This document shows positions 45,651 to 63,603 of a stretch of 64,000 nucleotides of DNA, in pieces; the stretch's first letter is position 1, and every line of letters begins with the position of its first letter. Location: the NCBI GenBank assembly GCA_903936565.1, contig CAIZVZ010000012.1, forward strand, positions 3,778 through 67,777. The letters run 5' to 3'. Both the position numbers and the translations under genes were made by a program. Origin of the DNA: an uncultured bacterium (lineage in GTDB: Bacteria; Patescibacteriota; Minisyncoccia; Phycocordibacterales; CAIZLB01). The notes beneath the pieces are model-generated. The model ran no database searches. It was not told where the DNA came from and saw only the letters and a program-made list of their open reading frames with translations.

Positions 45651-45721
45651 TGGGAGATCGTCTAACGGTAGGACAGAAGCCTTTGAAGCTTTTAATCTAG
45701 GTTCGATTCCTAGTCTCCCAG
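45651..45721 (+). tRNA. tRNA-Gln (anticodon UUG)
   Basis: manual cloverleaf: 7-bp acceptor stem with the bacterial tRNA-Gln U1:A72 pair, 4-bp D stem, 5-bp anticodon stem, loop cuUUGaa, T-arm ctagg-TTCGATT-cctag, discriminator G; CCA not encoded. Confidence 0.85.
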
Positions 45722-45767
45722 CACGAGTCAGCGCAGTATCGAGGCAAGACCACAGAGCCTGGTTGAG

Positions 45768-47639
45768 TTGCGTTTCAAAATGGTTGGAGTCTTAAAAAGT
45801 GTGAGCCAATATGTTGGACAAACTATTCATAACATTATGAAAAATGAGGATAAAATATTTACAAGAGAAGATATTTATAGATTATCTTTTTGTGTTATTG
45901 TTTTGTTTTTGGTATTTATCTTACCTAAAATAGATTTATACCCAATGTTTGTAAATTTTTTGGTCCTATTGAGACCAAATATGGACCACTATCCATATGC
46001 GAACCCTCCCATATTTTTTTCGATTGGGGAAGCTTTATCATCTATTGCTATATTATTTGCTATATATCAGTTTAAGAAAGAGAAATGGAGTATTGCTTTG
46101 AGGATAAGAAGTTATATTGAACCTACAATATTTATTTGTATCATCCTCGGTATAACACTATCCTTAGTAGCATCAGTAGTTACTTTTTTTTACCCAACAA
46201 ATATTTTCCTTCTGTCAGTTTTTTGGCAAATTATATCCAGTCTTTTCATAGCCTTTTCAATTGTATTTTTATTTTTAAAAGCAACTAATATAAAGCTATT
46301 TAATAAAAATAATTCTCGTAAATTTTATGAAGTAATGGTTGGGGAATTATCTAGGCCAAGTCCTCAAAGGTTAGATGTTACGTTAGAGGCTTTATTAGAT
46401 AATTTTCAAAATATATGTACAGCTGCAAATGGAGATCGTGAATCAGAAGTTTCTAAATCATCAATAGCAATACTCGATGTGGTTTTAGGAGAGTCTTCAT
46501 TAGTTGAACTTTTGGTTACAAAAAGACTCGATGCATTACGTCATTTGATTTATATTATTGAAAAAAACAACATAAATCAGCGCCAAGCACCTGGTTTTCA
46601 AGTCATCGTAAGGAATTTATTTCTTAATGAAGAATCTTTTTTCTATAGACACCTCAATAGAGATGGTTTATCTCTTTCTTCGAATATTTATGAAAGCATA
46701 TTTGAATACCCAAAAATACTTACAAACTTCAATTTATTTGGATATCCAACTTTGGGTTATTTAAAAAGAAACGATAGTCGTGTTGGCCTAAAAGTATTTA
46801 TACAGGCATTGTCAAAAGCAATAGAAACATACTTAAAAACTGGTAACGTGCCAACAAGTTATATTAATAATGGTTTAGAGTATCTTAGTGAGGCTTTCGG
46901 AAATATTTGCACCAAGATCAGTCTTGAGGAAAGTAGAGGGGTTGATACAAAAAATGTCTTAAGTGAAGAGTGGTGGATATTATATGACATTGCAAATTTT
47001 TTAGGTCACGATTATATATTTATTGCTTACGAAGATGATCTAAACCAAGATGTTATAAGAAACGAAAGGGCTACTTCTGAAGCAAGTTTTCATTCAACTT
47101 CTACAATAAACGCAGGAATTGCAGCTGTTTTGTTTAAATCTTTTGAACAACTGTCGCATATCACTAAAACTGTGGACACTTATTATATTGTTCTAGAGTT
47201 ACTTGGTGGTGTAATGCAAGGGGAAAATTACAAAGAAGGTTACAGAGATCCTTTTGAGAAAAGAATGTGGGAGCAAATTGCAAAAAACGTTATAGGTAAA
47301 CATTACCCTAATGTTTTGAGACCTTACTTAACTTTCATTGGTTTTACATTATCTTCGGAAGATAATAATCAAAGAACAGGTTGGGTTGGTGAACAAACGG
47401 AAAGAATGAGAAGATTGCTTTACATCGATTTAAAACCTTTATTTGATAATGAAGAAAGGATGGTTAACGATAAATTAATGAAAGATATTCTCCTTCCTGA
47501 TTCAATGGATTATATAGATGGTAAATTTCTGTATGTAGATGGTTTTGGAAAAGGTGAACGGAGGATAATCAGTGAACCAGCCCCAGGGTCAAAGTCTGCT
47601 TTAGAGGGAGTTGATACTCAAACAAGATCATTGCTTTAG
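45768..47639 (+). CDS. hypothetical polytopic membrane protein (first island gene)
   Basis: several N-terminal TM helices and a large soluble C-terminal region; no motif recognised. Confidence 0.45.
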   Translation: MRFKMVGVLKSVSQYVGQTIHNIMKNEDKIFTREDIYRLSFCVIVLFLVFILPKIDLYPMFVNFLVLLRPNMDHYPYANPPIFFSIGEALSSIAILFAIYQFKKEKWSIALRIRSYIEPTIFICIILGITLSLVASVVTFFYPTNIFLLSVFWQIISSLFIAFSIVFLFLKATNIKLFNKNNSRKFYEVMVGELSRPSPQRLDVTLEALLDNFQNICTAANGDRESEVSKSSIAILDVVLGESSLVELLVTKRLDALRHLIYIIEKNNINQRQAPGFQVIVRNLFLNEESFFYRHLNRDGLSLSSNIYESIFEYPKILTNFNLFGYPTLGYLKRNDSRVGLKVFIQALSKAIETYLKTGNVPTSYINNGLEYLSEAFGNICTKISLEESRGVDTKNVLSEEWWILYDIANFLGHDYIFIAYEDDLNQDVIRNERATSEASFHSTSTINAGIAAVLFKSFEQLSHITKTVDTYYIVLELLGGVMQGENYKEGYRDPFEKRMWEQIAKNVIGKHYPNVLRPYLTFIGFTLSSEDNNQRTGWVGEQTERMRRLLYIDLKPLFDNEERMVNDKLMKDILLPDSMDYIDGKFLYVDGFGKGERRIISEPAPGSKSALEGVDTQTRSLL

Positions 47640-48964
47640 TTATTTAGATAAATTATTTTATTTTTCATTGTGATTCTAGTATCTAAATTTGCCAACATCT
47701 CTCTTTTCTCTTCAACCGTCCCTTCCGTCAAAATGTGCTCTGTATACTTCTTTGAGTCAAACTCAATTTCTAGTTTTGATTGCTTAACCCCATAAAACTG
47801 TTTTTGGAAGGTGACCATGCGTTCTCGTTCTTGTTCAAATTTTCCTTTGATAAACTTTTGATCAACCTCTATTTTATCTATCATTTCAACTAATTGCTTA
47901 ATCAATTCTTCTTCTCGTAGGTATCCACATTTGCAATCTAAGTTTTTTGACCTGTTACATCCATAGTATATGTAATGTGCTGTACCACCATTCTTGAGTT
48001 TTTTGTATTTATCTTCAGCACAAATTCCTGATCCACATAGTCCGCATGTCATTAGTCTAGAAAATGCATAGTCTTTTCTTTCGTGAGTTATTTCAGATCT
48101 CTTGAGTTGCTCACGGACTTTTTCAAAAAGTTCAATATTTATTAAAGGTTCATGTTTTCCTGTATACCAATTACCACTTTTGACAGGGTATTCAAACTTT
48201 CCATAATAAAACGGTGTTTGTAAAAGTTTATATATATTACTCAAGGTTAATGGCTTGTTGCTCGTTGAACTTCTGAAATTCATCTCAAATTTAAGCCAGT
48301 GGTATATCTTTCTACCACTCCACTTTTCATATGCTACTTTCTCAAACATTTTCTTGATAACTGGTGCTCGTTCAGTATCAATCATTACATACCCCTTTCT
48401 ATCGATTCTCTTTTCGTTCAAATATCCTGTTGGGGCAGGGGCAGGCCATAGCCCCATCTCGCACCTTGTCCTTAGTCCTCTTTTGACATTCACGCTTTTG
48501 TTGTCATTTTCAAGTTTGGCTTGCGAACATAAAATCATAAGAAGGAATTTATCACTAGGTGAGTTACTAAATACTTGCCCATAGGTTTTAATTTCAATAA
48601 GCGCCTTTTGGTCTATGAGATCCACTAAACTTCCAAGATCTCCAGCATTTCTTGATAATCTATCTGGTGCCCATGTTAATATTCCTGAATATCTTCCACT
48701 TTTGATGTACATAAGTATTTCCTTAAAAACAGGTCTTTGTCCTGAATCCTTTGCTGAATGCGATTCACGCCTAATGTCCACAATCTCTAACCCTTCTCTT
48801 TCAGCTATCTGTAGCATCTCGTGTACTTGCGATTCTATCGATAGGATCTGTCGCTCCTCAGATTCTGTTGATTTTCTTGCATAAAGGCAGTATTTTACCT
48901 TTACAGGGCTTGATAGCAGGTTCCTCGTGTCAGGGTTCACTTGTAGCGGGTTTTTTGTTTCCAT
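47636..48964 (-). CDS. large serine recombinase (resolvase/invertase-type catalytic domain, recombinase domain and zinc ribbon)
   Basis: YARKSTE...SIESQ catalytic-Ser region, ...DRLSRN..., C-terminal Cys-rich CGLCG...C region. Confidence 0.85.
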   Translation of the reverse strand: METKNPLQVNPDTRNLLSSPVKVKYCLYARKSTESEERQILSIESQVHEMLQIAEREGLEIVDIRRESHSAKDSGQRPVFKEILMYIKSGRYSGILTWAPDRLSRNAGDLGSLVDLIDQKALIEIKTYGQVFSNSPSDKFLLMILCSQAKLENDNKSVNVKRGLRTRCEMGLWPAPAPTGYLNEKRIDRKGYVMIDTERAPVIKKMFEKVAYEKWSGRKIYHWLKFEMNFRSSTSNKPLTLSNIYKLLQTPFYYGKFEYPVKSGNWYTGKHEPLINIELFEKVREQLKRSEITHERKDYAFSRLMTCGLCGSGICAEDKYKKLKNGGTAHYIYYGCNRSKNLDCKCGYLREEELIKQLVEMIDKIEVDQKFIKGKFEQERERMVTFQKQFYGVKQSKLEIEFDSKKYTEHILTEGTVEEKREMLANLDTRITMKNKIIYLNN

Positions 48965-49092
48965 GCCTACATTGATGACGTAGATTACTGAGGAAGTCTA
49001 GCTAAAATGAGTAAAATTTGGGCTTTTATAACCGATATTTATCTGCAAACTATTCTGTACTACCACGATCTTTTAGAGTAGAATGGTTTGTA

Positions 49093-51549: not shown

Positions 51550-53145
51550 ATGAAGAAATTCAATAAAAATATTACAGCCGAATCACATCCGTCGCATTAT
51601 ATGATGCATAAATACTGGGGTAGAAAGCCTCACAATGTTGTTCGTGACTATATTTTAAATTTTACTAAGCCTGGAGACGTTGTCCTAGACCCTTTTATGG
51701 GTAGTGGAGTTGTCGTCATAGAATCTCTAAAGATTAATCGTAAGGTAATTGGAATAGACTTAAATCCAATGGCTTGTTTTATTGCTCAGAACACAATCAA
51801 TGATGTTGATTTGGATGATTTCTCGGTTGAATTTGAAAAAATATACAAAAAAAATTATGATCTTTTTTCTAAATTGTATCTTACTAAGTGTCCAACATGT
51901 AAGACAGAAGTTCCTTTCGAAAATTCTATTTGGGAACTAGAAGATTTTGTTAAGATAAAAGGTACGTGTTTACTTTGTGGTAAGTTTACAAAAGATACTG
52001 ATTCCCATGACCACAAAACATTCAATAAATCTAAGGATATTTTTTTCGAATTGAATAGTCAAAATAAAATATTTTATCCAAAGGATGAAATATTAAAGTT
52101 CGTCAAGAGAAACGGAAAAAGTCATGTTAATCAATTTTTTACCGATCGCTCTCTTGCTGTGCTTGGATCTATTATAAAAGATATAGAGAAGATAAAAAAT
52201 ATTAATACAAAGAATTTGGTTTTGATGTGTTTTACTTCAATGTTACCAAACGTGTCTAAAATGATTCCTGGAGATAAAGATACTGTAAATGGCAGATCGG
52301 GTTGGGTAATAAGTAAGTTATGGGCTCCCAAGATACACACAGAACGCAATCCATTGAACAGTTTTAGAGAAAGATTTAAAAAAATTAAAAAAGGAAAATT
52401 AGAACTAATTGATGCTTTTAACGCAAAGGATGCAAAAATATTAAACATTGACGCTACAAACCTAAAGGTAATAAAGAGTTCATCGGTAAATTATATTTTT
52501 ACTGATCCACCGTATGGCGATAGCATTGCTTACTTTGGGTTGAGTATGTTCTGGAATTCGTGGCTTAAAAAGGTTGTGGATTATGAAAATGAAATAATAT
52601 TTGATCCTTATAGAAATAAAAAATACGAAGATTATTCGAACCGAATGAAAAAAGTGTATGAAGAGTTGTTTAGAGTTCTTAAAAATAAGAGCTATTTGTC
52701 ATTTACTTTTCACAATAGAAATTTAAATATCTGGAAAGCTGTCATGGATGCTGTAACTGATGCTGGATTTCATCTAGTTAATGTTGTATATCAAGAACAG
52801 GCAGTAGCGTCGGGTACGCAAGGTATAAACAGAAATAATACACTTCGTGGTGATTTTGTATATAATTTTTTAAAGGACTCAAGTGTTATTTCTAAAAAAA
52901 ATAGCAACTTAAGTAAAATAGATAATGAGATAGAAATAATAAAGAAAGTAGAAAAATGGATTTTAAAAGCTGAAGGATCAATAACTTCTGACGCGTTATA
53001 TGAAAAGTTAATCCCGTTCATTGTTGAAGGTCAATTGTATGCTGATAATAACGGATTGGTTATGAACATAGAAGATGTGTTAAAGAGACATTTTGAATAT
53101 AGTTTTATCAAAACAAAAAAAGAATATGGCTGGCAAAAAAAATAA
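51550..53145 (+). CDS. DNA N6-adenine/N4-cytosine methyltransferase
   Basis: AdoMet motif I VLDPFMGSGVV at the N-terminus and catalytic motif IV DPPYG at ~residue 310; atg directly follows the helicase stop. Confidence 0.8.
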   Translation: MKKFNKNITAESHPSHYMMHKYWGRKPHNVVRDYILNFTKPGDVVLDPFMGSGVVVIESLKINRKVIGIDLNPMACFIAQNTINDVDLDDFSVEFEKIYKKNYDLFSKLYLTKCPTCKTEVPFENSIWELEDFVKIKGTCLLCGKFTKDTDSHDHKTFNKSKDIFFELNSQNKIFYPKDEILKFVKRNGKSHVNQFFTDRSLAVLGSIIKDIEKIKNINTKNLVLMCFTSMLPNVSKMIPGDKDTVNGRSGWVISKLWAPKIHTERNPLNSFRERFKKIKKGKLELIDAFNAKDAKILNIDATNLKVIKSSSVNYIFTDPPYGDSIAYFGLSMFWNSWLKKVVDYENEIIFDPYRNKKYEDYSNRMKKVYEELFRVLKNKSYLSFTFHNRNLNIWKAVMDAVTDAGFHLVNVVYQEQAVASGTQGINRNNTLRGDFVYNFLKDSSVISKKNSNLSKIDNEIEIIKKVEKWILKAEGSITSDALYEKLIPFIVEGQLYADNNGLVMNIEDVLKRHFEYSFIKTKKEYGWQKK

Positions 53146-54250
53146 AAAATTAAAAATTATAGATTTGTTCGCAGGGGTAGGAGGTCTTTCGTCGGGATTT
53201 AGAAAGGCAGGTTTTGAAGTTGTTTCAGCTAATGAATACAAACCTGATATAGCAAATACTTATATAAAAAATCACCCAGAAACGAAGATGTTTATAGAGG
53301 ATATTTCAAAAATTAAATCATCAGATCTGGTTAACGGAGAAGAAATTGACGTAATCGTAGGAGGACCTCCTTGTCAGGGATTTAGTATGGCGGGTCGCAG
53401 AATAAGAAATGATGGAGCTTTTTTAAATGATCCAAGAAACGAGTTGTTTAAGGAATTTCACCGGATAGTAAAAGATGTAAGACCAAAGGTTTTTGTTATG
53501 GAAAATGTTGCGGCAATGCTTAATATGCATGGGGGTACTGTAAAAGATAAAATAATTGAAATATTCAAAGAGATTGGGTATGAGACTGAAGTCAGAGTAC
53601 TTCTTGCTGCGGAATATGGAGTGCCACAACTTAGAAAAAGAGCTGTGTTTATTGGTAATAGGATTGGATTTAGTCCAAAGGATTTTTTTCCAAATAAAAC
53701 TCATGGCCCTCTATGTTCAAAACCTTTTGTTTCAGTAGGGGAAAGTATTTTAGATTTACCTAAAATATTGTCAGGGGCCGGAGAGTTTGAATCAGAATAT
53801 TTAAATAGTTCAGACATGACTAGTTATGAGAAGGAAAGAAAATCTAACTCCAAAAAACTTTATAATCACCAATCAACTAAACACGACAAAAGAATTATAG
53901 AGTTGCTTAAAAATATTAAACCAGGGCAAGGGCGAATTCATATACCTAAAGAGTTACAGACAAAATCTATTCATAGTGGTGCTTTTGGAAGACTAGAAAA
54001 AGGCAAACCAGCATATACTATTACGACTAGGTTTGATACACCTTCTGTAGGTAGAGTAACCCACCCCGTCTCTCATAGAGCCCTGACTCCTCGCGAGGCT
54101 GCAAGAATTCAATCTTTTGACGACGATTTTATTTTTTATGGAAATAAAAGTTCGATTGGAGTTCAGATTGGAAACGCTGTTCCCCCTCTATTAGCCAAGG
54201 CTATAGCATTGAAAATTAGAAGTGTCTTAGATAAACAAAAAAATGATTAA
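53126..54250 (+). CDS. DNA cytosine-5 methyltransferase
   Basis: motif I LFAGVGG, motif IV GGPPCQGFS, motif VI ENV, motif X QIGNAVPP; overlaps the upstream gene by 20 nt. Confidence 0.9.
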   Translation: MAGKKNKKLKIIDLFAGVGGLSSGFRKAGFEVVSANEYKPDIANTYIKNHPETKMFIEDISKIKSSDLVNGEEIDVIVGGPPCQGFSMAGRRIRNDGAFLNDPRNELFKEFHRIVKDVRPKVFVMENVAAMLNMHGGTVKDKIIEIFKEIGYETEVRVLLAAEYGVPQLRKRAVFIGNRIGFSPKDFFPNKTHGPLCSKPFVSVGESILDLPKILSGAGEFESEYLNSSDMTSYEKERKSNSKKLYNHQSTKHDKRIIELLKNIKPGQGRIHIPKELQTKSIHSGAFGRLEKGKPAYTITTRFDTPSVGRVTHPVSHRALTPREAARIQSFDDDFIFYGNKSSIGVQIGNAVPPLLAKAIALKIRSVLDKQKND

Positions 54251-55601
54251 AAAATATATTGAATTATTAAAAAACAAGGGTACTAAAAACTTTTGGAAAA
54301 AGGCTAAGCAAAAGGAGTATACAAAAGATGCTGTAAATAAAATATATCATGATTTGACTGCTCATTTTGAAGATCTAACCACACGTAACAGTATAACTTT
54401 GCGTTATTTAGGTTTAGTAATTAATCTAGGATCTGATAATCTAAAAGTTTCAAATGCTGGAGAAACATTTATAAGTTCCCCTTATAAGCAAAAAATATTA
54501 GATGAACAGATAATGAAAATTTATCTTGATTGCCCAAGACTCAATGATAATCTTTCCATTAAAATTGCCCCAATGGAGATTCTTCTGCATGTCTTGTATA
54601 AAATAAATTTTGTATCTTTCGAGGAGTATCAACTTTTCGTCTGTTGGATAAATAGCAAAGAGGATGTTGATCTGGCGCTTGATTTAATAAGCGAATATAG
54701 ACAATCTAATAAACAGTATTTATATATGTATGCCTTGAAAGAAAAGAGTGAAGAACTTGGTATAAGTGATTTTTCAGATAATGTTAAAAGATTTTTTGAC
54801 ATGTTATTAATATCTTCTTATATAACAAAAGATTATAATAATAATTTGTCATTAGCACTTTCTAAAAAAGACACCGAAATAATATTAGAGAGCTTTTCAT
54901 TAAGAGATTTTAGTGACGAACATTATTTTGATTATCTAACTACTAATAATGGTTGGCAGATTTACTCTATAAATCCGAATTATATTCGTGTCATTGAAAG
55001 TCTTGAGAAAAAAACAACAGAAGAGCAAGAAGATATAATAAATAATATAACGAACGACTTGAAGTTTCCAAATATTGACGACGTCAAACCTAAGATTATA
55101 GAGGTTGAAATTGATGATAGTCGTAGTGAGGAAGAGTCAACCCCTACAAGAAAAAAACTATCGCCACATAAAATTGACTTTGAAATTAGGGACAATAATA
55201 ATAGGGCGGCAGGGGATTTTGCGGAAAAAATCGTAATTAAACATGAGATAGAACAACTTTCTGAGGCAAATCAAACCACGGTTGATAATGTTAAGCAGGT
55301 TTCTCTAGAGGATGACACTTTGGGGTATGATATACTCTCATTTGATTTTGATGGGGTTACTGAGAAACACATAGAAGTTAAAGCTGTGAGAAGTGAACCC
55401 TCAATATCTTTCAGATTTTATATTTCAGAAAATGAAGTTTTAATAGCAAAGAATGATCCTAATTATTATCTTTATATTGTGTTTGGGTATCTTTCTGATA
55501 CTCCTTATATATATAAGATGCCGAATCCATTCACTAAAGATATTCCAGGAGTCACAATTGATCCAATTAAATATATTGTAACTGTTAAACTTAAAAAATA
55601 A
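54243..55601 (+). CDS. putative restriction endonuclease: N-terminal domain shared with the helicase, C-terminal PD-(D/E)xK-like (DUF3883-like) motif
   Basis: GYDILSFDFD...EKHIEVKA fits a D-(x)n-E-x-K nuclease signature; 8-nt overlap with the C5-MTase stop; its N-terminal domain aligns to helicase residues ~700-830. Confidence 0.45.
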   Translation: MIKKYIELLKNKGTKNFWKKAKQKEYTKDAVNKIYHDLTAHFEDLTTRNSITLRYLGLVINLGSDNLKVSNAGETFISSPYKQKILDEQIMKIYLDCPRLNDNLSIKIAPMEILLHVLYKINFVSFEEYQLFVCWINSKEDVDLALDLISEYRQSNKQYLYMYALKEKSEELGISDFSDNVKRFFDMLLISSYITKDYNNNLSLALSKKDTEIILESFSLRDFSDEHYFDYLTTNNGWQIYSINPNYIRVIESLEKKTTEEQEDIINNITNDLKFPNIDDVKPKIIEVEIDDSRSEEESTPTRKKLSPHKIDFEIRDNNNRAAGDFAEKIVIKHEIEQLSEANQTTVDNVKQVSLEDDTLGYDILSFDFDGVTEKHIEVKAVRSEPSISFRFYISENEVLIAKNDPNYYLYIVFGYLSDTPYIYKMPNPFTKDIPGVTIDPIKYIVTVKLKK

Positions 55602-55617
55602 AATTAATATCATATTT

Positions 55618-56016
55618 TTAAGTACTACTATCAAGTTCCGTCTTTTTTGATTCACCACTCTTGTCCTGCGGATTGTGTATCTCATATATAATCTTCTCCA
55701 CACCATGGTGAATCGGCTCAAAGAAGCCTCTAGGGCGAGGCTTTACATATTCTTTATGATTATTTTCTAACCATAATTTAGAGGCTCGAAAGTCGCCTTT
55801 CTTAATCAGAGAAATAATATGTCCTTCAGCAAGGTCGTTCACACTAGAGCGACCTTGTTTTAGTGCTTTTTCAAGTTTTTTAGCAAATCTTTTATCTTTT
55901 TCTTTCCACCTATATATAGTTGCTTTGCATATGCCAACTCGTCTACAAACAACAGATATGAGTGGAATCTCAACAAGTTCTTGAAGGAACTTTTCTTTAT
56001 CATCATGATTTTTCAT
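55618..56016 (-). CDS. HTH DNA-binding protein resembling a phage terminase small subunit
   Basis: ISVVCRRVGICKATIYRW helix-turn-helix; co-oriented with, and overlapping, the ParB-methylase gene as in phage packaging modules. Confidence 0.4.
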   Translation of the reverse strand: MKNHDDKEKFLQELVEIPLISVVCRRVGICKATIYRWKEKDKRFAKKLEKALKQGRSSVNDLAEGHIISLIKKGDFRASKLWLENNHKEYVKPRPRGFFEPIHHGVEKIIYEIHNPQDKSGESKKTELDSST

Positions 56017-57343
56017 GTATCTTTATTGCTTTTTTGCCAGTAAGATTTTCCCAGCGTTTTTTTATGACTTCTGCATATACTGGAGATTTCTCCATCAAGA
56101 AACACCTGCGGTTCATTCTGGTTGATGCCATAAGTGTTGACCCACTTCCTCCAAATGGTTCTACAATTAGATCATCTCTTTTGGTAAGGACTTTGATGTA
56201 GGGGATTAGTATCTCTAATGGTTTTGTGCCAAATATAACACCCTGTCCAGACGATGCTTCATCAGATGCTTTGTACTCAATGAAGTCTGTTGGACATATT
56301 TTCTTTCCTTTCTCGTACCCTTCCCATTGTGGCTTGCCTGAAATTGCATAAAGAGCTGTCTGATACTCATTCTCAAGGATTTCATCTTCTGGCTGAATAT
56401 TCATCTCTACAGAGTCTTCTGTTGTTCCAACCATAGCTATGTCATGTTTGCTAAAAAACTTATACTTAGCCGAGAAACCTTGAGTTCTGTTTGGTAAATG
56501 CCACACAAGCATGTTTTTTACCTTCCAGTATTTTTCCATCTCATTCCAAATGATTCTAATATTCTTCCAATTTTCATAAACGATTATATGAAAATTGTCT
56601 TTGGAAATATCTTTTATGTTCTTCATCCACAGTTCTGTGAAGTTGTCTGGTAGGGAATCAGTTTCAAGATATCTTCGATTCTTCTTTGCTCCAAAACCTG
56701 TAGTGACCCCATCCTTTTGTTTTGTTTTGCCAGACAAATAATCTAGTATATAAGGAGGGTCAGTAAAACACATATCGGCCTTGTGACCGTCCATGAGTGT
56801 TTGCATATCAGATTCTATAGTACTATCTCCACACATTAGTCTTGATCCATCTAAGTCATATACATCGCCCTTCTTAATGTCTATGTTTTGAATATCTAGT
56901 TTATGTAGTTCCTTTTCCAGATCAAACATCTCAGTTGTTTCTTCGGTAAGGAAGATATCGTCTAATTCTTCACTTGAAAAGCCAATGTCAGAAAGAAAAG
57001 TCTCGTCAAACTCCTTAAGTAAATCTAGATCAAATTCCCCAGTATTTTTATTTAGACGAATATTCAACTCCTTTTCTTTTTCAAGATCTGCGATATTCAC
57101 ATAAACTACAGGTATTAAATCTATACCTAGTTCTTTTGCCACTTCGTATCTGAAACACCCGCCAATTATCACATTTTCACGTCCGGGTGCATTGTTGCAT
57201 ATAATAGGATCGATAAAACCGAATCTCTTTAAAGATTCTTTTAACTGGTCGGATTGGTCCTTGGAATGTTTTCTTGGATTGTAATCTGGTACTACTAACA
57301 TGCTCGTTGAGAGATACTCAACTTTAATATTCTCCTTGTTCAT
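56003..57343 (-). CDS. ParB-like nuclease N-terminal domain fused to an N6/N4 DNA methyltransferase (phage-type orphan methylase)
   Basis: ParB-N fold residues ~1-90; DPPY motif CFTDPPYILDY; C-terminal AdoMet motif VEPFGGSGST (beta-class motif order). Confidence 0.8.
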   Translation of the reverse strand: MNKENIKVEYLSTSMLVVPDYNPRKHSKDQSDQLKESLKRFGFIDPIICNNAPGRENVIIGGCFRYEVAKELGIDLIPVVYVNIADLEKEKELNIRLNKNTGEFDLDLLKEFDETFLSDIGFSSEELDDIFLTEETTEMFDLEKELHKLDIQNIDIKKGDVYDLDGSRLMCGDSTIESDMQTLMDGHKADMCFTDPPYILDYLSGKTKQKDGVTTGFGAKKNRRYLETDSLPDNFTELWMKNIKDISKDNFHIIVYENWKNIRIIWNEMEKYWKVKNMLVWHLPNRTQGFSAKYKFFSKHDIAMVGTTEDSVEMNIQPEDEILENEYQTALYAISGKPQWEGYEKGKKICPTDFIEYKASDEASSGQGVIFGTKPLEILIPYIKVLTKRDDLIVEPFGGSGSTLMASTRMNRRCFLMEKSPVYAEVIKKRWENLTGKKAIKIHEKS

Positions 57344-57666
57344 ATTTAATTTAATTAACTAATAAAATCGAATCTTTCCTATATAAATGTAGTTTTTAGA
57401 GTTAATTTGTAGGTGAAAGTTTGCAAGCGTTTGGTTTAATATCAGTTTTATGCACTAATTATATAACATATAAAACAAAAAGCATTAAAAAGTGTGCATA
57501 AATTTAAAATGTAAGTTTTTGATCTATATTTTTGAGTAAGAACCATGAAATGAATATCGGCGTTTGCTGATAACTTGCCAGAGACATGATTAGATAGCCC
57601 AGAGGCTCTTTGTTTCAAATTTAGCAAAAATCTAGTAGACTTAGGACAAATATAATAAACAATACA

Positions 57667-59163
57667 ATGAGCCATATAATCTCAAAAACACTTTTTCTAG
57701 AGTACCGCTATTGCCCCAAGAATATTTGGCTTAAGCTAAATAAACGAGAATTACTTGATAAGTTCACACTTTCCGACTTTGAAAAGCATCTTGCAGAGCA
57801 GGGGAATGAAGTTGAATCATGTGCTAGAGGTTTGTTTTCCAAGGGGGTTGAAGTTAAGTCTAACGGGGAGGGTGCTTGCATAGAAACTGTGCAGCTTATA
57901 ACATCAGGAGTTAAAACACTTTTTCAATCAACGTTTATTGTCGATGGATTTATTGCTCGTAATGACATACTCCACTTCGATGAACAGAATGATTGTTGGG
58001 ACTTATTTGAAGTCAAAGGTACAAATAGTTTAAAGGAAAGTGGAGAAAGAGATCATATTGAAGATGTAGGGTTTCAAGTTTCAGTTCTTAAGCGTGCAAA
58101 TGTGAGGATAGGTAAATATTTCTTGATTCATTTAAATAAAGAATATGTACGCGACGGCGATTTAGATCTAGGTCTTCTATTTAAAATAGAAGATGTGACA
58201 GAAAAAGTAAATGAGAGATTGGTAGATATTGAAAAACAAATGGATTCAGCTCGTGAATATTTAAATAGAGAAAGTGAACCAGAAGGAGGTTGTGACTGTG
58301 TATACAAAGGGAGAGGTAAGCATTGCTCAACGTTCAAGCATTCTAACTCGCATGTGCCTGACTATTCAGTTCACGATCTTTCAAGTATAAGAGAAAAGAA
58401 AGTGACTGAATTAATAGAAAATGGAATCTTTGAGCTAAATGACATTCCAGATGAGTTTGAATTATCTGATAATCAAAAACTTCAAATAAGTGCTCATGTA
58501 AGACAATCGCCAATTATTGATTTGGGTAGTGTAAAGGATGAGTTAGATAAACTTGAATTTCCTTTATACTTTTTTGACTATGAAGCTTTTGCTCCAGCAA
58601 TTCCAATGTTCAATGGTTATAGCCCTTACAATCCAATTCCATTTCAATTTTCTTTGCACATATTAGATGCGCCAAATACTGAGATGCGACATGTTGAATT
58701 TCTGCATATGGAAAGAACTGATCCATCACATCTAGTCGCCGAGATTTTAGACAAACATATTTCAAATAAGGGGACAGTAATTGCTTGGAATAAGTCTTAT
58801 GAGACAAGAGTGAATGAACAGATAGCTGCACGCTTACCACAATACAATAGTTTATTTAGTAGAATAAATAGTTCAATGTATGATTTACGTGATATATTTC
58901 AAAAACAGTATTATGTGCACCACGGCTTTAAGGGTAAGACTTCTATAAAAAAAGTTCTTCCAATTCTTGCTCCAGATCAGCGTTATGATGTTCTAGATAT
59001 TCAAGAAGGTGGACAAGCTGCAGACGCATGGTGGAGGATGGTGTCTCCCGTCCCTGGCGATGAGGAGAAAGCTAAGATTGCAAAAGATCTAAAGATTTAT
59101 TGTGGTTTAGATACATATGCGATGTACGCGATTTGGAAGCATTTAGTTGATTTAATGAATTAA
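57667..59163 (+). CDS. two-nuclease protein: Cas4/RecB-like Fe-S PD-(D/E)xK domain plus C-terminal DEDDy 3'-5' exonuclease-like domain (DUF2779-like architecture)
   Basis: N-terminal YRYCPKNIWL, D...DLFEVKG motifs, C-x-C-x8-C cluster (GGCDCVYKGRGKHC); C-terminal FFDYEAF (Exo I), YDLRDIF (Exo II), YCGLD (Y-x3-D). Confidence 0.55.
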   Translation: MSHIISKTLFLEYRYCPKNIWLKLNKRELLDKFTLSDFEKHLAEQGNEVESCARGLFSKGVEVKSNGEGACIETVQLITSGVKTLFQSTFIVDGFIARNDILHFDEQNDCWDLFEVKGTNSLKESGERDHIEDVGFQVSVLKRANVRIGKYFLIHLNKEYVRDGDLDLGLLFKIEDVTEKVNERLVDIEKQMDSAREYLNRESEPEGGCDCVYKGRGKHCSTFKHSNSHVPDYSVHDLSSIREKKVTELIENGIFELNDIPDEFELSDNQKLQISAHVRQSPIIDLGSVKDELDKLEFPLYFFDYEAFAPAIPMFNGYSPYNPIPFQFSLHILDAPNTEMRHVEFLHMERTDPSHLVAEILDKHISNKGTVIAWNKSYETRVNEQIAARLPQYNSLFSRINSSMYDLRDIFQKQYYVHHGFKGKTSIKKVLPILAPDQRYDVLDIQEGGQAADAWWRMVSPVPGDEEKAKIAKDLKIYCGLDTYAMYAIWKHLVDLMN

Positions 59164-59164
59164 A

Positions 59165-59695
59165 ATGAAAAATAAACTTACAAAACATTTAAATTTCTCC
59201 AGTATATCACTATGGAATGAAAAATTTGATGATGTTCTGGAATTGGATAAACATCTAGATAAGTTAGATAAAAGAGTTGTTTTCATTGGTCTTAACGCAA
59301 CAAAAACACTTGATCCTTTTCTAAATTTTCATTCTGTGAGAAGAGGGGGAAGAGATAGATGGATCAAAGAGGCTTTCGACAATGGCAATTTAGGAATTGT
59401 CTATATGACTGATGTAATTAAGAATGATACAACGGTGGATTCTGGTAAGGTAAATTTGTCAAAAGAGAATATTAAAGAAAATCTTAAATATTTAAAGCAA
59501 GAGTTGTTAGATTTGAGTAGTGATAAAAAGCTGGTGATTGCAGTGGGAGGTGAAGTTAAGAAAATAATTTTAAATAATAAGGACTATCTAGGTGTAGAGG
59601 ATGTCTTTTGTTGTAGGTATTATGCTAGTCGCTGCACAAAGGATGAATTTCTAAGGAGTTTCTCTGATGTTGTAAAAGAAATAATTAAAATATGA
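59165..59695 (+). CDS. hypothetical protein (176 aa)
   Basis: abuts the stop of the upstream nuclease gene; no motif recognised. Confidence 0.4.
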   Translation: MKNKLTKHLNFSSISLWNEKFDDVLELDKHLDKLDKRVVFIGLNATKTLDPFLNFHSVRRGGRDRWIKEAFDNGNLGIVYMTDVIKNDTTVDSGKVNLSKENIKENLKYLKQELLDLSSDKKLVIAVGGEVKKIILNNKDYLGVEDVFCCRYYASRCTKDEFLRSFSDVVKEIIKI

Positions 59696-60258
59696 AAATA
59701 GACATAAATAAAATTGAAAAAGACTCATTAAAAATTAAAAACATTAGTGATAATTCATATATTCAGTCTTATAAAGAATTCATTAAATATTTTGATGGTT
59801 TAGATGAGATAAAAAAAGAAAATTTAATAATAGGTTCACATCTTGTGTATGGCTGGATGCCAAAGGTCTTGCGTCTTAATTTGAGACAGGAGAAGGAGGT
59901 ACTTCAAATTTTAAATGAAGTCAAAAGAGGTGTGTTAATATCAAAAACAAATTTGGAAACCTTGAGGTCAGCAATAGGTAATTCAATGGTTGGCGTATCT
60001 AAGCTTCTGCATTTTATATCACCAAAGAAGTATGCTATTTGGGATAGCCGGGTATATAGCTATATCCATAATGGTGTAAAGCCTTATGACTATCAGATAA
60101 AAAGACCTGAATTGTATTTGGAATATTTACAAGAAATGGAGAAGGTCTCAAAAGAAACTGCTGTAAAGGAAATACAATCTACCGTAGTGAAAGCTTGCGG
60201 ATATAAAGCAACTCCATTTAGAGCTATTGAATTAGTTATGTTTGAGACAGGTAGGTAA
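59692..60258 (+). CDS. hypothetical protein (188 aa)
   Basis: 4-nt overlap (atga) with the upstream ORF. Confidence 0.4.
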   Translation: MKIDINKIEKDSLKIKNISDNSYIQSYKEFIKYFDGLDEIKKENLIIGSHLVYGWMPKVLRLNLRQEKEVLQILNEVKRGVLISKTNLETLRSAIGNSMVGVSKLLHFISPKKYAIWDSRVYSYIHNGVKPYDYQIKRPELYLEYLQEMEKVSKETAVKEIQSTVVKACGYKATPFRAIELVMFETGR

Positions 60259-60301
60259 AAGGTCTTTAATTATTCTCAGACAGGAGTATTATATTAGGTA
60301 T

Positions 60302-60964
60302 ATGAGAGTCCCAGATGAAAAAATTCAAAAAATGAAAGATATTCTTGAAAAAAGAGGTGGAAAGGAAGTAACTTGGGCAGAAGCTTCTGATGCTTCAACT
60401 AGACTATCAAGTCTCATGGAGTTACTTTTAAAACATGCACAGGAAGACTGGAAAAGGGAACAGAAGCTCAAAGAATATCCAAAAGGTTTTTCTTTAGGCG
60501 GTGTCGGTTATTCTTGCTTTATATGTGGACAAGGAACTTCTTTAAATGGAAATTGGTACGATAAATATGGAATAAAATGTATGGTCTGTCAGGATTCAAT
60601 TAACAGAAAGGAAATACCCGCAAGTTTATCTAAGGATAAAGAAAGTTGGTATAGTAAATATGATCTAGAAGGTAGTTTTAATTTGAAAGCACCAACCCTT
60701 CGAGGTTGGATAAAGAGAGGTATTATCAAAGCTCGTACACTTACATATAATGGAAAGGGTGTGCACTATCAAGTATTTCTAATTAAGGATAACAAAGGAT
60801 TTTTACCACCGAAACATATGGTAAAAAATCAATTTGTTAGTGAGGAGATTGACGGTAAAATTTGGCATCATTCAGAACCTTGGTATAAGTTTGTTGACCC
60901 TTTTGAGCACTTAAAGGACTATGGAATCATGAAGTATATGAGTTACACGGAAGTGGAAAAATAA
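60302..60964 (+). CDS. hypothetical zinc-ribbon protein
   Basis: CFICGQG...(15 aa)...CMVCQ four-Cys ribbon; start taken at MRVPDE. Confidence 0.4.
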   Translation: MRVPDEKIQKMKDILEKRGGKEVTWAEASDASTRLSSLMELLLKHAQEDWKREQKLKEYPKGFSLGGVGYSCFICGQGTSLNGNWYDKYGIKCMVCQDSINRKEIPASLSKDKESWYSKYDLEGSFNLKAPTLRGWIKRGIIKARTLTYNGKGVHYQVFLIKDNKGFLPPKHMVKNQFVSEEIDGKIWHHSEPWYKFVDPFEHLKDYGIMKYMSYTEVEK

Positions 60965-60978
60965 TTTTCTATTTTCCC

Positions 60979-61022
60979 TCTATCCCTATGATGTTTGGGT
61001 ACCCAAACATCATAGGGATAGA
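60979..61022. repeat. perfect 44-bp palindrome (two 22-nt arms with no spacer, centred on gggtaccc)
   Basis: tctatccctatgatgtttgggt|acccaaacatcatagggataga read directly; no flanking T-run. Confidence 0.9.
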
Positions 61023-61408
61023 AGAGAAGTACGTCAATAACACTACAACACAAAGTTGTGTTGTAAACATTAATTTTGAAATTGATCTTAATGATGTATT
61101 GGAAAGCATTAGAGTGTTGCTCTATTATATCAGAAAAACGGCTAGAAATAAAGGTTTAGTTCCAAAATCAAAGAATATTTTTTTAGTCATAACATATTGC
61201 CCAGTGTGTCTCATTTGTCTTATTTTGGAAATAAAACACCCGACCGAGACGGGTCAATATGATACAATAATAATCGTTGAAGAACCCTTACGGTGTCTCA
61301 CGGTGAGAGGTTCTAGACCGAAGTACACAGCTGATTTTTCCTCTATGTGCGAAGCGCATAAATATTAGATTAAATCATCCCGAGCCTCGCGAGGGACAGT
61401 TTTTGCAA

Positions 61409-61468
61409 GCCTTATTTATCAACGTATTTTCGGGTGGGGTATTGTGGGGTTCGAACTTCTGATATAAT
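61409..61468 (+). promoter_or_regulatory. copy 1 of a repeated ~52-nt motif (gccttattt...tattttCgggtggggtaTtGtGgGttcGaacTtctg) ending in an extended -10 tgatataat
   Basis: about 80% identical to 63552-63603; tgatataat lies 9 nt before the ATG at 61478. Confidence 0.35.
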
Positions 61469-63451: not shown

Positions 63452-63551
63452 TTTTTAAATCTAAACTTGCTCCAACATCGTCCTAAACAGCCAGCCGATT
63501 TTTAAGCGTAAAAATCGCGCAGAAATCAGCAGATTTCTGCCTAAATGTTAA

Positions 63552-63603
63552 GCCTTATTTCCAGAGTATTTTTGGGTGGGGTAATATAGGATTCAAACAT
63601 CTG
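63552..63603 (+). promoter_or_regulatory. copy 2 of the repeated ~52-nt motif
   Basis: gccttatttccagagtatttttgggtggggtaatataggattcaaacatctg; 56 nt upstream of the ATG at 63659. Confidence 0.35.

What the first reader, a model, noticed from the sequence alone, without database searches (positions are those of the whole stretch)
57667..61022. Second tightly packed module: two-nuclease protein (Cas4-like Fe-S PD-(D/E)xK plus DEDDy exonuclease) with three small unknown ORFs and a terminal 44-bp palindrome
The 498-aa protein joins an N-terminal RecB/Cas4-like nuclease to a C-terminal domain with DnaQ-like Exo I/II/III motifs (FFDYEAF, YDLRDIF, YCGLD). The RecB/Cas4-like part has YRYCPK, DLFEVK and a C-x-C-x8-C cluster that completes a 4-Cys Fe-S site. 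Three small ORFs follow in the same orientation, with abutting or overlapping starts (59163/59165, 59692-59695) and a ~40-nt gap before the last. One of them is a four-Cys zinc ribbon. The unit ends at a perfect 44-bp palindrome. This looks like a self-contained nuclease-based module, either defense or phage DNA-processing. It has no described function.
Basis: partly seen in the sequence, partly recalled or inferred. Interest (0 to 1): 0.7.

Follow-up and report, generated by a model that had tools for sequence, protein, structure and literature searches.

The report
Dual nuclease with two DNA glycosylases
A mobile element in a tiny-genome (Patescibacteria) bacterium carries a tight three-gene operon that joins a two-headed nuclease to two base-removing enzymes, one from a family recently shown to destroy phage DNA with modified bases; this is probably a new combination of known anti-phage parts rather than a new kind of system.

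Summary
The sequence observation holds: four same-strand ORFs, abutting or overlapping starts, the nuclease motifs, a 4-Cys ribbon and a perfect 44-bp palindrome.

The interpretation needs re-cutting.
- The 498-aa protein is a DUF2779 protein (Cas4-like PD-(D/E)xK with a 4-Cys site, plus a DEDDy exonuclease). This architecture was already described computationally in 2014 and 2026.
- ORF4 (zinc ribbon plus probable HTH) is not part of the module. It is a backbone gene of a family of Patescibacterial integrative elements, together with a serine recombinase, a TerS-like HTH protein and a ParB-methylase. It occurs there without the other three genes.
- The palindrome is a probable terminator-type hairpin.

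The real unit is DUF2779–UDG-like–Dag-like, carried as cargo in an island rich in restriction-modification genes. Dag-like and DUF2779 genes are adjacent in three diverged contexts. None of 80 other DUF2779 loci has a Dag-like gene, so the link is facultative.

Best reading (confidence about 0.45): base-excision-initiated restriction of modified phage DNA, with the dual nuclease processing the abasic sites or nicks. Novelty: new variant of a known kind.

The parts
57667..59163 (+). DUF2779 dual nuclease, 498 aa. N-terminal Cas4-like PD-(D/E)xK domain (D100, E115-x-K117, Q137) with a 4-Cys site (C16, C209, C211, C220). C-terminal DEDDy 3'-5' exonuclease (D304, E306, D406, Y478, D482).
   Evidence: Pfam DUF2779, E = 1e-36. 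Motif conservation in 81 members. Of 35 members, 12 also hit Cas_Cas4 and 7 hit RNase_H_2. 35 synonymous against 16 non-synonymous codon differences versus L005.
59165..59695 (+). UDG-superfamily glycosylase-fold protein, 176 aa, from a divergent uncharacterised family. Conserved GLN(44)xS, F55-H56, T82-D83. The motif-B histidine is replaced by Tyr152 in this copy.
59692..60258 (+). HhH/OGG-fold glycosylase-like protein, 188 aa, of a Dag (defence-associated glycosylase) family. Invariant K104 and D118 in 'VGVSKLLHF..P..YAIWDSR'.
60302..60964 (+). Zinc-ribbon (CxxC...CxxC) plus probable HTH protein, 220 aa. A backbone gene of the integrative element, not part of the nuclease/glycosylase unit.
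   Evidence: More than 256 homologues at 52-66% identity, the named ones from Patescibacteria; some are fused to HNH. Found with a serine recombinase, and in two of three contexts with a TerS-like protein and a (ParB-)methylase, but without DUF2779, UDG or Dag genes. Weak HTH_17 hit only.
60979..61022 (.). Perfect 44-bp palindrome (20-bp stem and 4-nt loop as RNA), 15 nt after the stop of gene 4. Probable terminator or stabiliser hairpin without a U-tract; it overlaps the ATG of the next ORF.
   Evidence: Kept with one uncompensated mismatch in L005. A different 60-bp palindrome follows the ORF4-like gene in L063, but none follows it in L175, L177 or L179.
60988..61368 (+). ORF5 (126 aa), or a non-coding region that is unusually conserved at the DNA level. 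It forms the end of the block shared with L005.
   Evidence: 2 differences in 344 nt against 3.5-5% in neighbouring genes. Folds with z -5.5 and -7.1 on the two strands. No Pfam or Rfam hit.
57344..57666 (.). 323-bp divergent intergenic region between the ParB-methylase (minus strand) and the DUF2779 operon (plus strand). Presumed promoters; the most divergent part of the shared block.
   Evidence: 25 differences in 323 nt versus L005. Promoter-like hits are no more frequent than in shuffles, so promoter function is inferred only.
56003..57343 (-). ParB-N / N6_N4 DNA methyltransferase, an element backbone gene.
   Evidence: Pfam. 70% identical to the L177 copy and 63% to the L063 copy. 61 synonymous against 5 non-synonymous.
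55618..56016 (-). Small HTH protein resembling a small terminase subunit, an element backbone gene.
   Evidence: Pfam HTH_Tnp_1_2 and PHROG terminase-small-subunit families. In L179 a 135-aa gene in the same position, after the methylase, lies next to a large terminase; its homology to this protein was not tested.
47636..48964 (-). Large serine recombinase of the integrative element, lying near tRNA-Gln (45651-45722).
   Evidence: Pfam Resolvase, Recombinase and Zn_ribbon_recom. 60% identical to the L177 recombinase. tRNA.

Best explanation
Genes 1-3 (57667-60258) form one translationally coupled cargo operon. It sits on a serine-recombinase integrative element of a Patescibacterium, inside an island rich in restriction-modification genes.

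Proposed mechanism:
1. The Dag-family HhH enzyme (ORF3, Lys104/Asp118) and the UDG-fold enzyme (ORF2, Asn44) flip out and excise non-canonical bases from invading DNA. By analogy with Dag and Brig enzymes these would be 7-deazaguanine-type purines and modified pyrimidines.
2. ORF3, if bifunctional like Dag1, also nicks the backbone.
3. The DUF2779 protein enters at the abasic sites or nicks and degrades the DNA in both directions, using its DEDDy 3'-5' exonuclease and its Cas4-like Fe-S 5'-3' nuclease. Scattered base loss thereby becomes irreversible destruction.

Shown: folds, conserved active-site residues, gene coupling, genomic context, and recurrence of the Dag-DUF2779 pair.
Inferred: substrates, lyase activity, the order of action, and any physical interaction.

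ORF4, the palindrome and ORF5 belong to the element backbone or its end, not to this unit.
For: - Coupling: a 1-nt spacer and an ATGA overlap join genes 1-3.
- Folds and residues: UDG fold for ORF2, HhH/OGG fold for ORF3, dual nuclease motifs for DUF2779.
- ORF3's 45%-identical homologue ALJ03866.1 is listed among the Dag families. Members of those families protect against phages with modified guanine, and Dag1 behaves as a bifunctional enzyme with K118/D132, the same 14-residue spacing as K104/D118 here.
- Dag-like and DUF2779 genes are adjacent in three diverged contexts with different gene order and different partners. These are this cassette; L008-L010 after a type III R-M system (ORF3 56% and DUF2779 42% identical); and L017.
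- Neighbours of the ORF3 family are variable and rich in R-M genes.
- Among the 80 DUF2779 loci, defence-type helicase/nuclease genes recur as neighbours at loci of roughly 40-60% identity to this protein.
- The island also holds a helicase-REase with methylase and a Dcm with a NOV_C nuclease.
- Genes 1 and 2 show purifying selection.
Against: - 0 of 80 other DUF2779 loci have a Dag-like gene within 6 kb, and at most one has a marginal UDG-like hit. Most Dag-like loci lack DUF2779. The partnership is therefore optional.
- Published Dag and Brig enzymes work as single genes.
- ORF2's relatives at 30-35% identity sit in housekeeping contexts. This copy carries Tyr in place of the near-invariant motif-B His.
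- ORF3 shows 6 synonymous against 10 non-synonymous changes versus L005, which could mean relaxed constraint.
- No PADLOC model hits genes 2-3.
- No experiment exists for this subfamily or for any DUF2779 protein.
- The catalytic-residue mapping of ORF3 rests on motif and topology, not on a structural superposition (one search failed).
Confidence: 0.45

Rival explanations
1. Mere co-location. The three genes are independent single-gene functions: a stand-alone Dag-type defence glycosylase, a UDG-type repair or defence glycosylase, and a DUF2779 repair/recombination nuclease. They are packed head to tail because cargo regions of these small, compact genomes have almost no intergenic space. There is no mechanistic hand-off between them.
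For: - Dag and Brig enzymes act alone.
- 0 of 80 DUF2779 loci carry a Dag-like gene.
- The closest DUF2779 (L095, 64% identical) sits in the same HTH/ParB-methylase position but is followed by an ExoX-like exonuclease instead.
- The 73%-identical ORF2 homologue lies elsewhere, without DUF2779 or a Dag-like gene.
- Other gene pairs in the island also overlap, e.g. Dcm and NOV_C.
Against: - Dag-like/DUF2779 adjacency is kept across 42-56% protein divergence and in a rearranged order, in three contexts.
- This DUF2779 clade is rare: 205 relatives were confirmed in a pattern-based scan of one genome for each of 185,579 species. Repeated chance adjacency is therefore very unlikely.
Confidence: 0.3
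2. A mobile-element-borne base-excision repair or DNA-processing cassette. UDG and an OGG/EndoIII-like glycosylase-lyase remove uracil and oxidised bases from the element's (or host's) DNA. DUF2779 cleans blocked 3' ends and flaps. The cassette supplements the reduced repair repertoire of a Patescibacterium or serves replication of the phage-like element.
For: - ORF2 relatives lie in housekeeping contexts and in 18 viral contigs, several named as giant-virus MAGs.
- Distant DUF2779 genes sit next to dnaG-rpoD.
- DUF2779 is quasi-essential in JCVI-syn3.0 (PMC13621843).
- Backbone genes are phage-like: TerS-like HTH protein and ParB-methylase, and in one related locus (L179) a large terminase.
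Against: - The ORF3 family is encoded in variable, R-M-rich neighbourhoods and is listed among the Dag defence families, not among core repair glycosylases.
- The cassette sits among restriction systems.
- No polymerase or ligase partner is present.
Confidence: 0.15
3. A restriction-modification pair of the base-excision type. The divergently transcribed ParB-methylase protects host sites. The HhH glycosylase excises the unmethylated base, as in the R.PabI family, and DUF2779 completes cleavage.
For: - ORF3-like genes lie within about 2.5 kb of the same ParB-methylase/HTH pair in this cassette and in L063: about 2.3 kb away, beyond DUF2779 and ORF2, in this cassette, and directly adjacent in L063.
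- Restriction glycosylases are an established class (PMC5388411, PMC10273834).
Against: - The ParB-methylase is a backbone gene present without any glycosylase in L177, L095 and L117.
- L008 and L017 pair the Dag-like gene with DUF2779 and no such methylase.
- Characterised Dag enzymes target modified, not unmodified, bases.
Confidence: 0.1

Closest known systems
DUF2779 / PF11074 proteins (e.g. MMSYN1_0389 of JCVI-syn3.0; RNase H-like family F.17 of Majorek et al. 2014)
   Same: Same two-domain architecture: an N-terminal Cas4/DUF83-like PD-(D/E)xK nuclease and a C-terminal DEDDy exonuclease. All catalytic residues are conserved.
   Different: - This clade keeps the full 4-Cys Fe-S site that the Mycoplasma protein lacks.
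- Here the gene is cargo of a mobile element and is fused into an operon with two glycosylases, rather than being a core gene.
- No family member has been characterised experimentally.
Dag defence-associated HhH DNA glycosylases (Getz et al., bioRxiv 10.1101/2025.10.29.685425)
   Same: - ORF3 has the HhH glycosylase fold, small size (about 190 aa) and a Lys/Asp pair with the Dag1 spacing.
- It lies in a mobile, AT-rich context rich in defence genes.
- A 45%-identical homologue is listed as a Dag family member.
   Different: - Dag enzymes are described as single-gene systems, mostly from integrons of Vibrionaceae.
- Here the gene is translationally coupled to a UDG-fold protein and a dual nuclease.
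- Which of the 17 Dag families it belongs to, and what its substrate is, are unknown. The Dag1 residues D184/W188 have no obvious counterpart; R177 and E180 are the invariant C-terminal residues.
Brig1 / Brig2 UDG-fold defence glycosylases (Hossain et al. 2024, PMC11078745; Getz et al. 2025)
   Same: ORF2 is a UDG-superfamily protein encoded in a defence-type island.
   Different: - No sequence link to Brig1 or Brig2 could be tested.
- The nearest solved structures are SMUG2, UdgX, family-4 UDG and TDG.
- Most ORF2 relatives are in housekeeping contexts or large viral contigs.
- This copy has a motif-B His-to-Tyr change.
END nucleases (inactivated EndoIII/OGG sensor fused to PLD, PD-DExK or McrB; PMC12191111)
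   Same: An OGG-like (PF21790-related) domain is combined with a nuclease, including PD-(D/E)xK types, for attack on hypermodified phage DNA.
   Different: - In END nucleases the glycosylase domain is catalytically dead and fused to the nuclease.
- Here it is a separate protein that keeps an invariant Lys/Asp pair.
- The nuclease here is a Cas4-DEDDy fusion.
Restriction glycosylases (R.PabI family)
   Same: Base excision is used as the first step of restriction, and a methyltransferase gene lies nearby.
   Different: - Different fold (HALFPIPE rather than HhH; from my own knowledge of the family).
- R.PabI excises unmethylated bases in a specific site.
- The methylase here is an element backbone gene that also occurs without the glycosylase.

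Membership tests
DUF2779 (PF11074) | Match to the Pfam model above its gathering score | tested here: met
   126.3 bits against a cutoff of 23.3, residues 301-426. All 35 aligned relatives also match.
DUF2779 (PF11074) | DEDDy exonuclease residues (Exo I D-x-E, Exo II D, Exo III Y-x3-D) | tested here: met
   D304, E306 and D406 are invariant, and Y478 and D482 are kept in 98% of 81 members. 7 of 35 members also hit RNase_H_2. No structural superposition was done.
Cas4 / RecB-like PD-(D/E)xK nucleases | D...(D/E)xK catalytic motif plus a downstream conserved Q | tested here: met
   D100, E115 and K117 are invariant and Q137 is kept in 98%. 12 of 35 relatives hit Pfam Cas_Cas4, best 1e-5. The window protein itself gives only a weak PADLOC Cas4 hit, E = 0.0047.
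Cas4 / RecB-like PD-(D/E)xK nucleases | Four-cysteine Fe-S cluster site (one N-terminal Cys plus three C-terminal Cys) | tested here: met
   C16, C209, C211 and C220 are all present and co-vary: CCCC in 40 of 81 members, all four absent (e.g. HPLL, HPHL) in about 27 and partly retained in about 9. Metal binding itself cannot be tested here.
Cas4 as a CRISPR adaptation protein | Association with cas1/cas2 and a CRISPR array | tested here: not met
   No PADLOC Cas model other than the weak Cas4 hit on this protein matches the ten neighbourhood proteins scanned, and no direct repeat in 45-64 kb has more than three copies. This is a solo Cas4-like domain.
Uracil-DNA glycosylase superfamily (PF03167) | UDG alpha/beta fold | tested here: met
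Uracil-DNA glycosylase superfamily (PF03167) | Motif A catalytic residue and motif B His | tested here: inconclusive
   Motif A-like G-L-N44-x-S is invariant. The motif-B His is kept in 47 of 50 members but is Tyr152 in this copy, while the L005 copy has His. The mapping to UDG motifs is by pattern, not by superposition.
HhH (HhH-GPD/OGG) DNA glycosylases | HhH glycosylase fold | tested here: met
HhH (HhH-GPD/OGG) DNA glycosylases | Catalytic Asp at the N-cap of the helix after the HhH (and Lys in the HhH for bifunctional enzymes) | tested here: inconclusive
   K104 lies in helix 99-109 and D118 just before helix 119-125; both are invariant in 41 sequences. The equivalence to EndoIII K120/D138 is recalled knowledge.
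Dag defence glycosylase families (Getz et al. 2025) | Sequence homology to an experimentally active Dag representative | tested here: met
   The test is indirect. P0020 (= ALJ03866.1) is 45% identical to ORF3 (E = 3e-44) and is listed under 'Dag Families' in Table S7. The specific Dag family was not determined because the table is truncated.
Dag defence glycosylase families (Getz et al. 2025) | Protection against phages with modified guanine | not testable with these tools
   Needs phage challenge.
END nucleases | Inactivated EndoIII/OGG sensor domain fused to the nuclease in one polypeptide | tested here: not met
   The OGG-like protein is a separate 188-aa ORF and keeps an invariant Lys/Asp pair.

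The most novel reading that the evidence does not exclude
The operon is a three-enzyme 'base-excision restriction' pathway. Two glycosylases of different folds mark invading DNA that carries different modified bases. A dedicated Cas4-DEDDy dual exonuclease (DUF2779) is recruited to the resulting abasic sites or lyase nicks and degrades the DNA in both directions.

If so, DUF2779 would be a processor of BER-type intermediates. That would give a first testable function to a widespread family that is quasi-essential in the minimal cell JCVI-syn3.0.
Probability: 0.25. Interest if true: 0.7.

Novelty: new variant of a known kind. Interest (0 to 1): 0.5.

Why it matters
- Defence glycosylases (Brig, Dag) are described as single proteins that rely on abasic-site toxicity or their own lyase activity. 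A recurrent operon that couples one to a dual exonuclease would show how base excision is turned into outright DNA destruction.
- It would hint at the biochemical role of DUF2779, a widespread and uncharacterised family that is quasi-essential in the minimal cell.
- The work also outlines a family of Patescibacterial integrative elements with a conserved backbone (serine recombinase, TerS-like HTH, ParB-methylase, zinc-ribbon/HTH protein) and swappable defence cargo. That family is a useful hunting ground for further systems in a poorly studied phylum.

Tried and rejected
- PDB sequence searches found nothing meaningful. This covers the 498-aa protein alone, a 35-member DUF2779 profile, and the ORF2 and ORF3 profiles.
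The catalytic mapping therefore stays inferential.
- Pfam, NCBIfam, PADLOC and PHROGs gave no significant hit on the single sequences of ORF2-5. Only homologue sets revealed the families.
- The T-loop-like string at 61424-61461 is not a tRNA remnant of an att site. ARAGORN and Rfam see nothing there. It is a repeated intergenic element.
- The 173-aa gene upstream of the Dag-like gene in L008 is not an ORF2 homologue.
- The palindrome as a conserved partner of ORF4 was rejected. A different long palindrome follows the ORF4-like gene in L063, but none follows it in L175, L177 or L179.
- Rfam finds only spurious miRNA-hairpin matches on the palindrome.
- The promoter scan is no better than shuffles.
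- No accession was available to test whether ORF2 relatives are among the published Brig2 homologues.
- The 134-aa gene upstream in L017 looked like an HNH nuclease by eye, but Pfam does not support it.

Full report
**1. Observation**

The four plus-strand ORFs are at the stated coordinates.
- Gene 1 ends at 59163 and gene 2 starts at 59165.
- Genes 2 and 3 overlap in ATGA (59692-59695).
- Gene 4 most probably starts at the ATG at 60302 (220 aa), 43 nt after gene 3. Public gene calls and the N-termini of 38 homologues agree on this.
- The palindrome 60979-61022 is perfect over 44 bases. It is the longest hairpin in the window; the next has a 15-bp stem. No shuffle of 200 folds as well.

**2. 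Origin and setting**

The same protein lies on a 199.6-kb metagenomic contig and on several shorter ones. Named homologues of genes 1 and 4 come overwhelmingly from Patescibacteria, so the host is a CPR bacterium.

G+C falls from about 0.40 to about 0.32 just after tRNA-Gln at 45651-45722. The following genes, in order, are:
- an unknown 623-aa gene;
- a large serine recombinase;
- a helicase-type restriction enzyme with its methylase;
- a Dcm methylase overlapping a NOV_C nuclease that hits PADLOC PDC-S36 / PD-T4-1;
- a minus-strand pair made of a TerS-like HTH protein and a ParB-N6/N4 methylase;
- the finding.

The locus is therefore the right-hand part of an integrative element loaded with restriction and defence genes.

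**3. Gene 1**

Pfam calls DUF2779 on residues 301-426. In 81 family members the following hold:
- D100 and E115-x-K117 are invariant and Q137 is kept in 98% (PD-(D/E)xK).
- D304-x-E306 and D406 are invariant, and Y478-x3-D482 is kept in 98% (DEDDy).

The four cysteines are present together in 40 of 81 members and wholly or partly replaced in the others. That pattern is what a cluster ligand set would show. Of 35 members, 12 also hit Pfam Cas_Cas4 and 7 hit RNase_H_2.

This architecture is already in the literature:
- Majorek et al. 2014 placed DUF2779 among the 3'-5' exonucleases and noted the DUF83 partner domain.
- A 2026 paper describes the JCVI-syn3.0 member as Cas4-like plus DEDDy.

No member has been studied experimentally. 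The residue equivalences therefore rest on motifs and the cited HHpred work.

**4. Genes 2 and 3 are glycosylase-fold proteins**

ORF2:
- The indexed search found only one relative, but the exhaustive search found 174.
- 12 of 50 aligned members hit Pfam UDG.
- Asn44 in G-L-N-x-S, F55-H56 and T82-D83 are conserved (H56 in 47 of 50).
- The motif-B His (47 of 50) is Tyr in this copy, although the 96%-identical cassette in L005 has His.

ORF3:
- It has 78 homologues.
- 15 of 41 hit DUF6308 and 4 of 41 hit PF21790 'OGG-like'.
- Lys104 and Asp118 are invariant. Lys104 lies in the second helix of the HhH-like element and Asp118 sits just before the next helix.
- One homologue (ALJ03866.1, 45% identical) appears under 'Dag Families' in Table S7 of Getz et al.. 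In that study 19 such HhH enzymes protected against 7-deazaguanine phages, and Dag1 (K118/D132, the same 14-residue spacing) behaved as a bifunctional glycosylase.

**5. Gene 4, the palindrome and ORF5 are not part of the unit**

Gene 4 has more than 256 homologues at 52-66% identity; the named ones are from Patescibacteria. Some carry a C-terminal HNH domain. All three contexts examined carry a large serine recombinase. Two also have a (ParB-)methylase with a small adjacent protein in the position of the TerS-like HTH protein, and one has a large terminase and an ImmR/ImmA pair. None has DUF2779, UDG-like or Dag-like genes.

In L177 the gene sits directly divergent from the ParB-methylase, where this window has genes 1-3. 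The L177 methylase is 70% identical, the recombinase 60% and the gene-4 homologue 65%. Genes 1-3 are thus cargo inserted into a conserved backbone.

A second genome (L005-L007) shares window 55670-61331 at 96% identity but has different flanks. The mobile block is therefore larger than the finding and includes the minus-strand pair and ORF5.

Within that block the counts of synonymous against non-synonymous codon differences are:
- ParB-methylase 61 against 5;
- DUF2779 35 against 16;
- ORF2 11 against 3;
- ORF4 13 against 8;
- ORF3 6 against 10.

The ORF5 region has only 2 differences in 344 nt.

The palindrome is kept with one uncompensated mismatch. Long hairpins follow ORF4-like genes in only two of five contexts, and with unrelated sequences. 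A terminator or stabiliser hairpin is the simplest reading. Shorter hairpins sit at other gene ends in the window. It lacks a U-tract and overlaps the ORF5 start codon.

**6. Is the trio a functional unit?**

For:
- The genes are translationally coupled.
- The Dag-like and DUF2779 genes are adjacent in three diverged contexts: DUF2779-UDG-Dag here; type III R-M, a 173-aa gene, Dag, DUF2779 in L008-L010; and a 134-aa gene, Dag, DUF2779 in L017. Protein identities are 51-56% for the Dag-like gene and 32-45% for DUF2779.

Against:
- Among 80 species-representative genomes with DUF2779, none has a Dag-like gene within 6 kb, and only one has a marginal UDG-like hit.
- About 70 further Dag-like loci show other neighbours, such as type I R-M, AlwI, HIT and Mrr-STAND proteins.

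DUF2779 itself has two habitats:
- Distant homologues (about 33% identical) follow dnaG-rpoD.
- At several loci whose DUF2779 is closer to this one (about 40-60% identical) it lies beside SF1-helicase/REase giants, ResIII with HerA, or GmrSD-HNH.

ORF2 relatives at 30-35% identity are in housekeeping contexts and in large viral contigs. The 73%-identical relative is not linked to DUF2779. The Dag-DUF2779 link is real but facultative. ORF2 is the least securely attached member.

**7. Mechanism**

The best-supported model is base-excision-initiated restriction. One or both glycosylases remove non-canonical bases from incoming DNA. ORF3 may nick through its Lys-Asp lyase chemistry. The dual nuclease enlarges the lesions from both sides. 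Confidence is about 0.45.

The rivals are mere co-location of independent genes (0.30), an element-borne repair or processing cassette (0.15), and a methylase-controlled restriction glycosylase (0.10).

**8. Comparison and novelty**

Each part belongs to a known kind: DUF2779, the UDG superfamily, and a Dag-type HhH glycosylase.
- It is not an END nuclease, because the sensor is neither fused nor inactivated.
- It is not a CRISPR Cas4, because the neighbourhood shows no other cas genes and no repeat array.
- The paper searches I ran did not turn up a description of the glycosylase-plus-DUF2779 operon.

I rate it a new variant of a known kind, with interest 0.5. It would become more interesting if the nuclease proves to be the dedicated processor of glycosylase products.

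Noticed in passing
window 60965-61368: The stretch holding the palindrome and 'ORF5' has 2 substitutions in 344 nt against L005, while flanking genes differ by 3.5-5%. It folds far better than shuffles on both strands (z -5.5 and -7.1). It has no Pfam or Rfam match. It may be non-coding, for example the element end, an att or pac site, or an RNA.
   Followed up: partly
window 61345-61446, 63490-63549 and 63566-63603; L005 10409-10574 and 11704-11868: A roughly 100-nt intergenic element recurs upstream of several genes in this genome and in the related L005 genome. It includes GTATTTTCGGGTGGGGTATTGTGGGGTTCGAAC, which looks like a tRNA T-arm but is not a tRNA. It may be a lineage-specific promoter or REP-like repeat.
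   Followed up: partly
window 53093-55601: A Dcm cytosine methylase overlaps by 8 nt a 452-aa protein with a C-terminal NOV_C nuclease domain that hits PADLOC PDC-S36 and PD-T4-1. This is a second candidate defence pair in the island.
   Followed up: no
window 45651-53145: tRNA-Gln is followed by an unknown 623-aa gene, a large serine recombinase (minus strand), an 843-aa helicase-type restriction enzyme and a 531-aa N6/N4 methylase. The G+C drop at about 46 kb marks the left end of an integrative element.
   Followed up: partly
window 59618-59620 (codon 152 of ORF2): The near-invariant motif-B histidine of the UDG-like family is tyrosine in this population, but histidine in the 96%-identical cassette of L005 and in the 73%-identical P0002. 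This copy may be attenuated or have altered specificity.
   Followed up: yes
P0099, P0103, P0107, P0109, P0164, P0178 (ORF4 homologues); L179 6001-7053: Some members of the ORF4 zinc-ribbon/HTH family carry an extra C-terminal domain of about 120 aa. In two it looks HNH-like (one is annotated 'HNH endonuclease'). In L179 the gene follows an ImmR/ImmA-type pair in a prophage-like region with a large terminase.
   Followed up: partly
L063 5448-11761: A third element variant has this order: AlwI restriction enzyme, Dag-like gene, the TerS-like/ParB-methylase pair on the minus strand, then 77-aa and 181-aa ORFs, an SNase-Excalibur nuclease and an ORF4-like fragment followed by an unrelated 60-bp palindrome. 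A different nuclease thus occupies roughly the position that DUF2779 has here.
   Followed up: partly
L190-L207 (viral contigs): The ORF2-type UDG-like family occurs in 18 IMG/VR contigs, including several giant-virus MAGs and contigs up to 388 kb. It also occurs in DPANN archaea (P0207, Aenigmarchaeota). This is a broadly distributed UDG family that seems to be undescribed.
   Followed up: no
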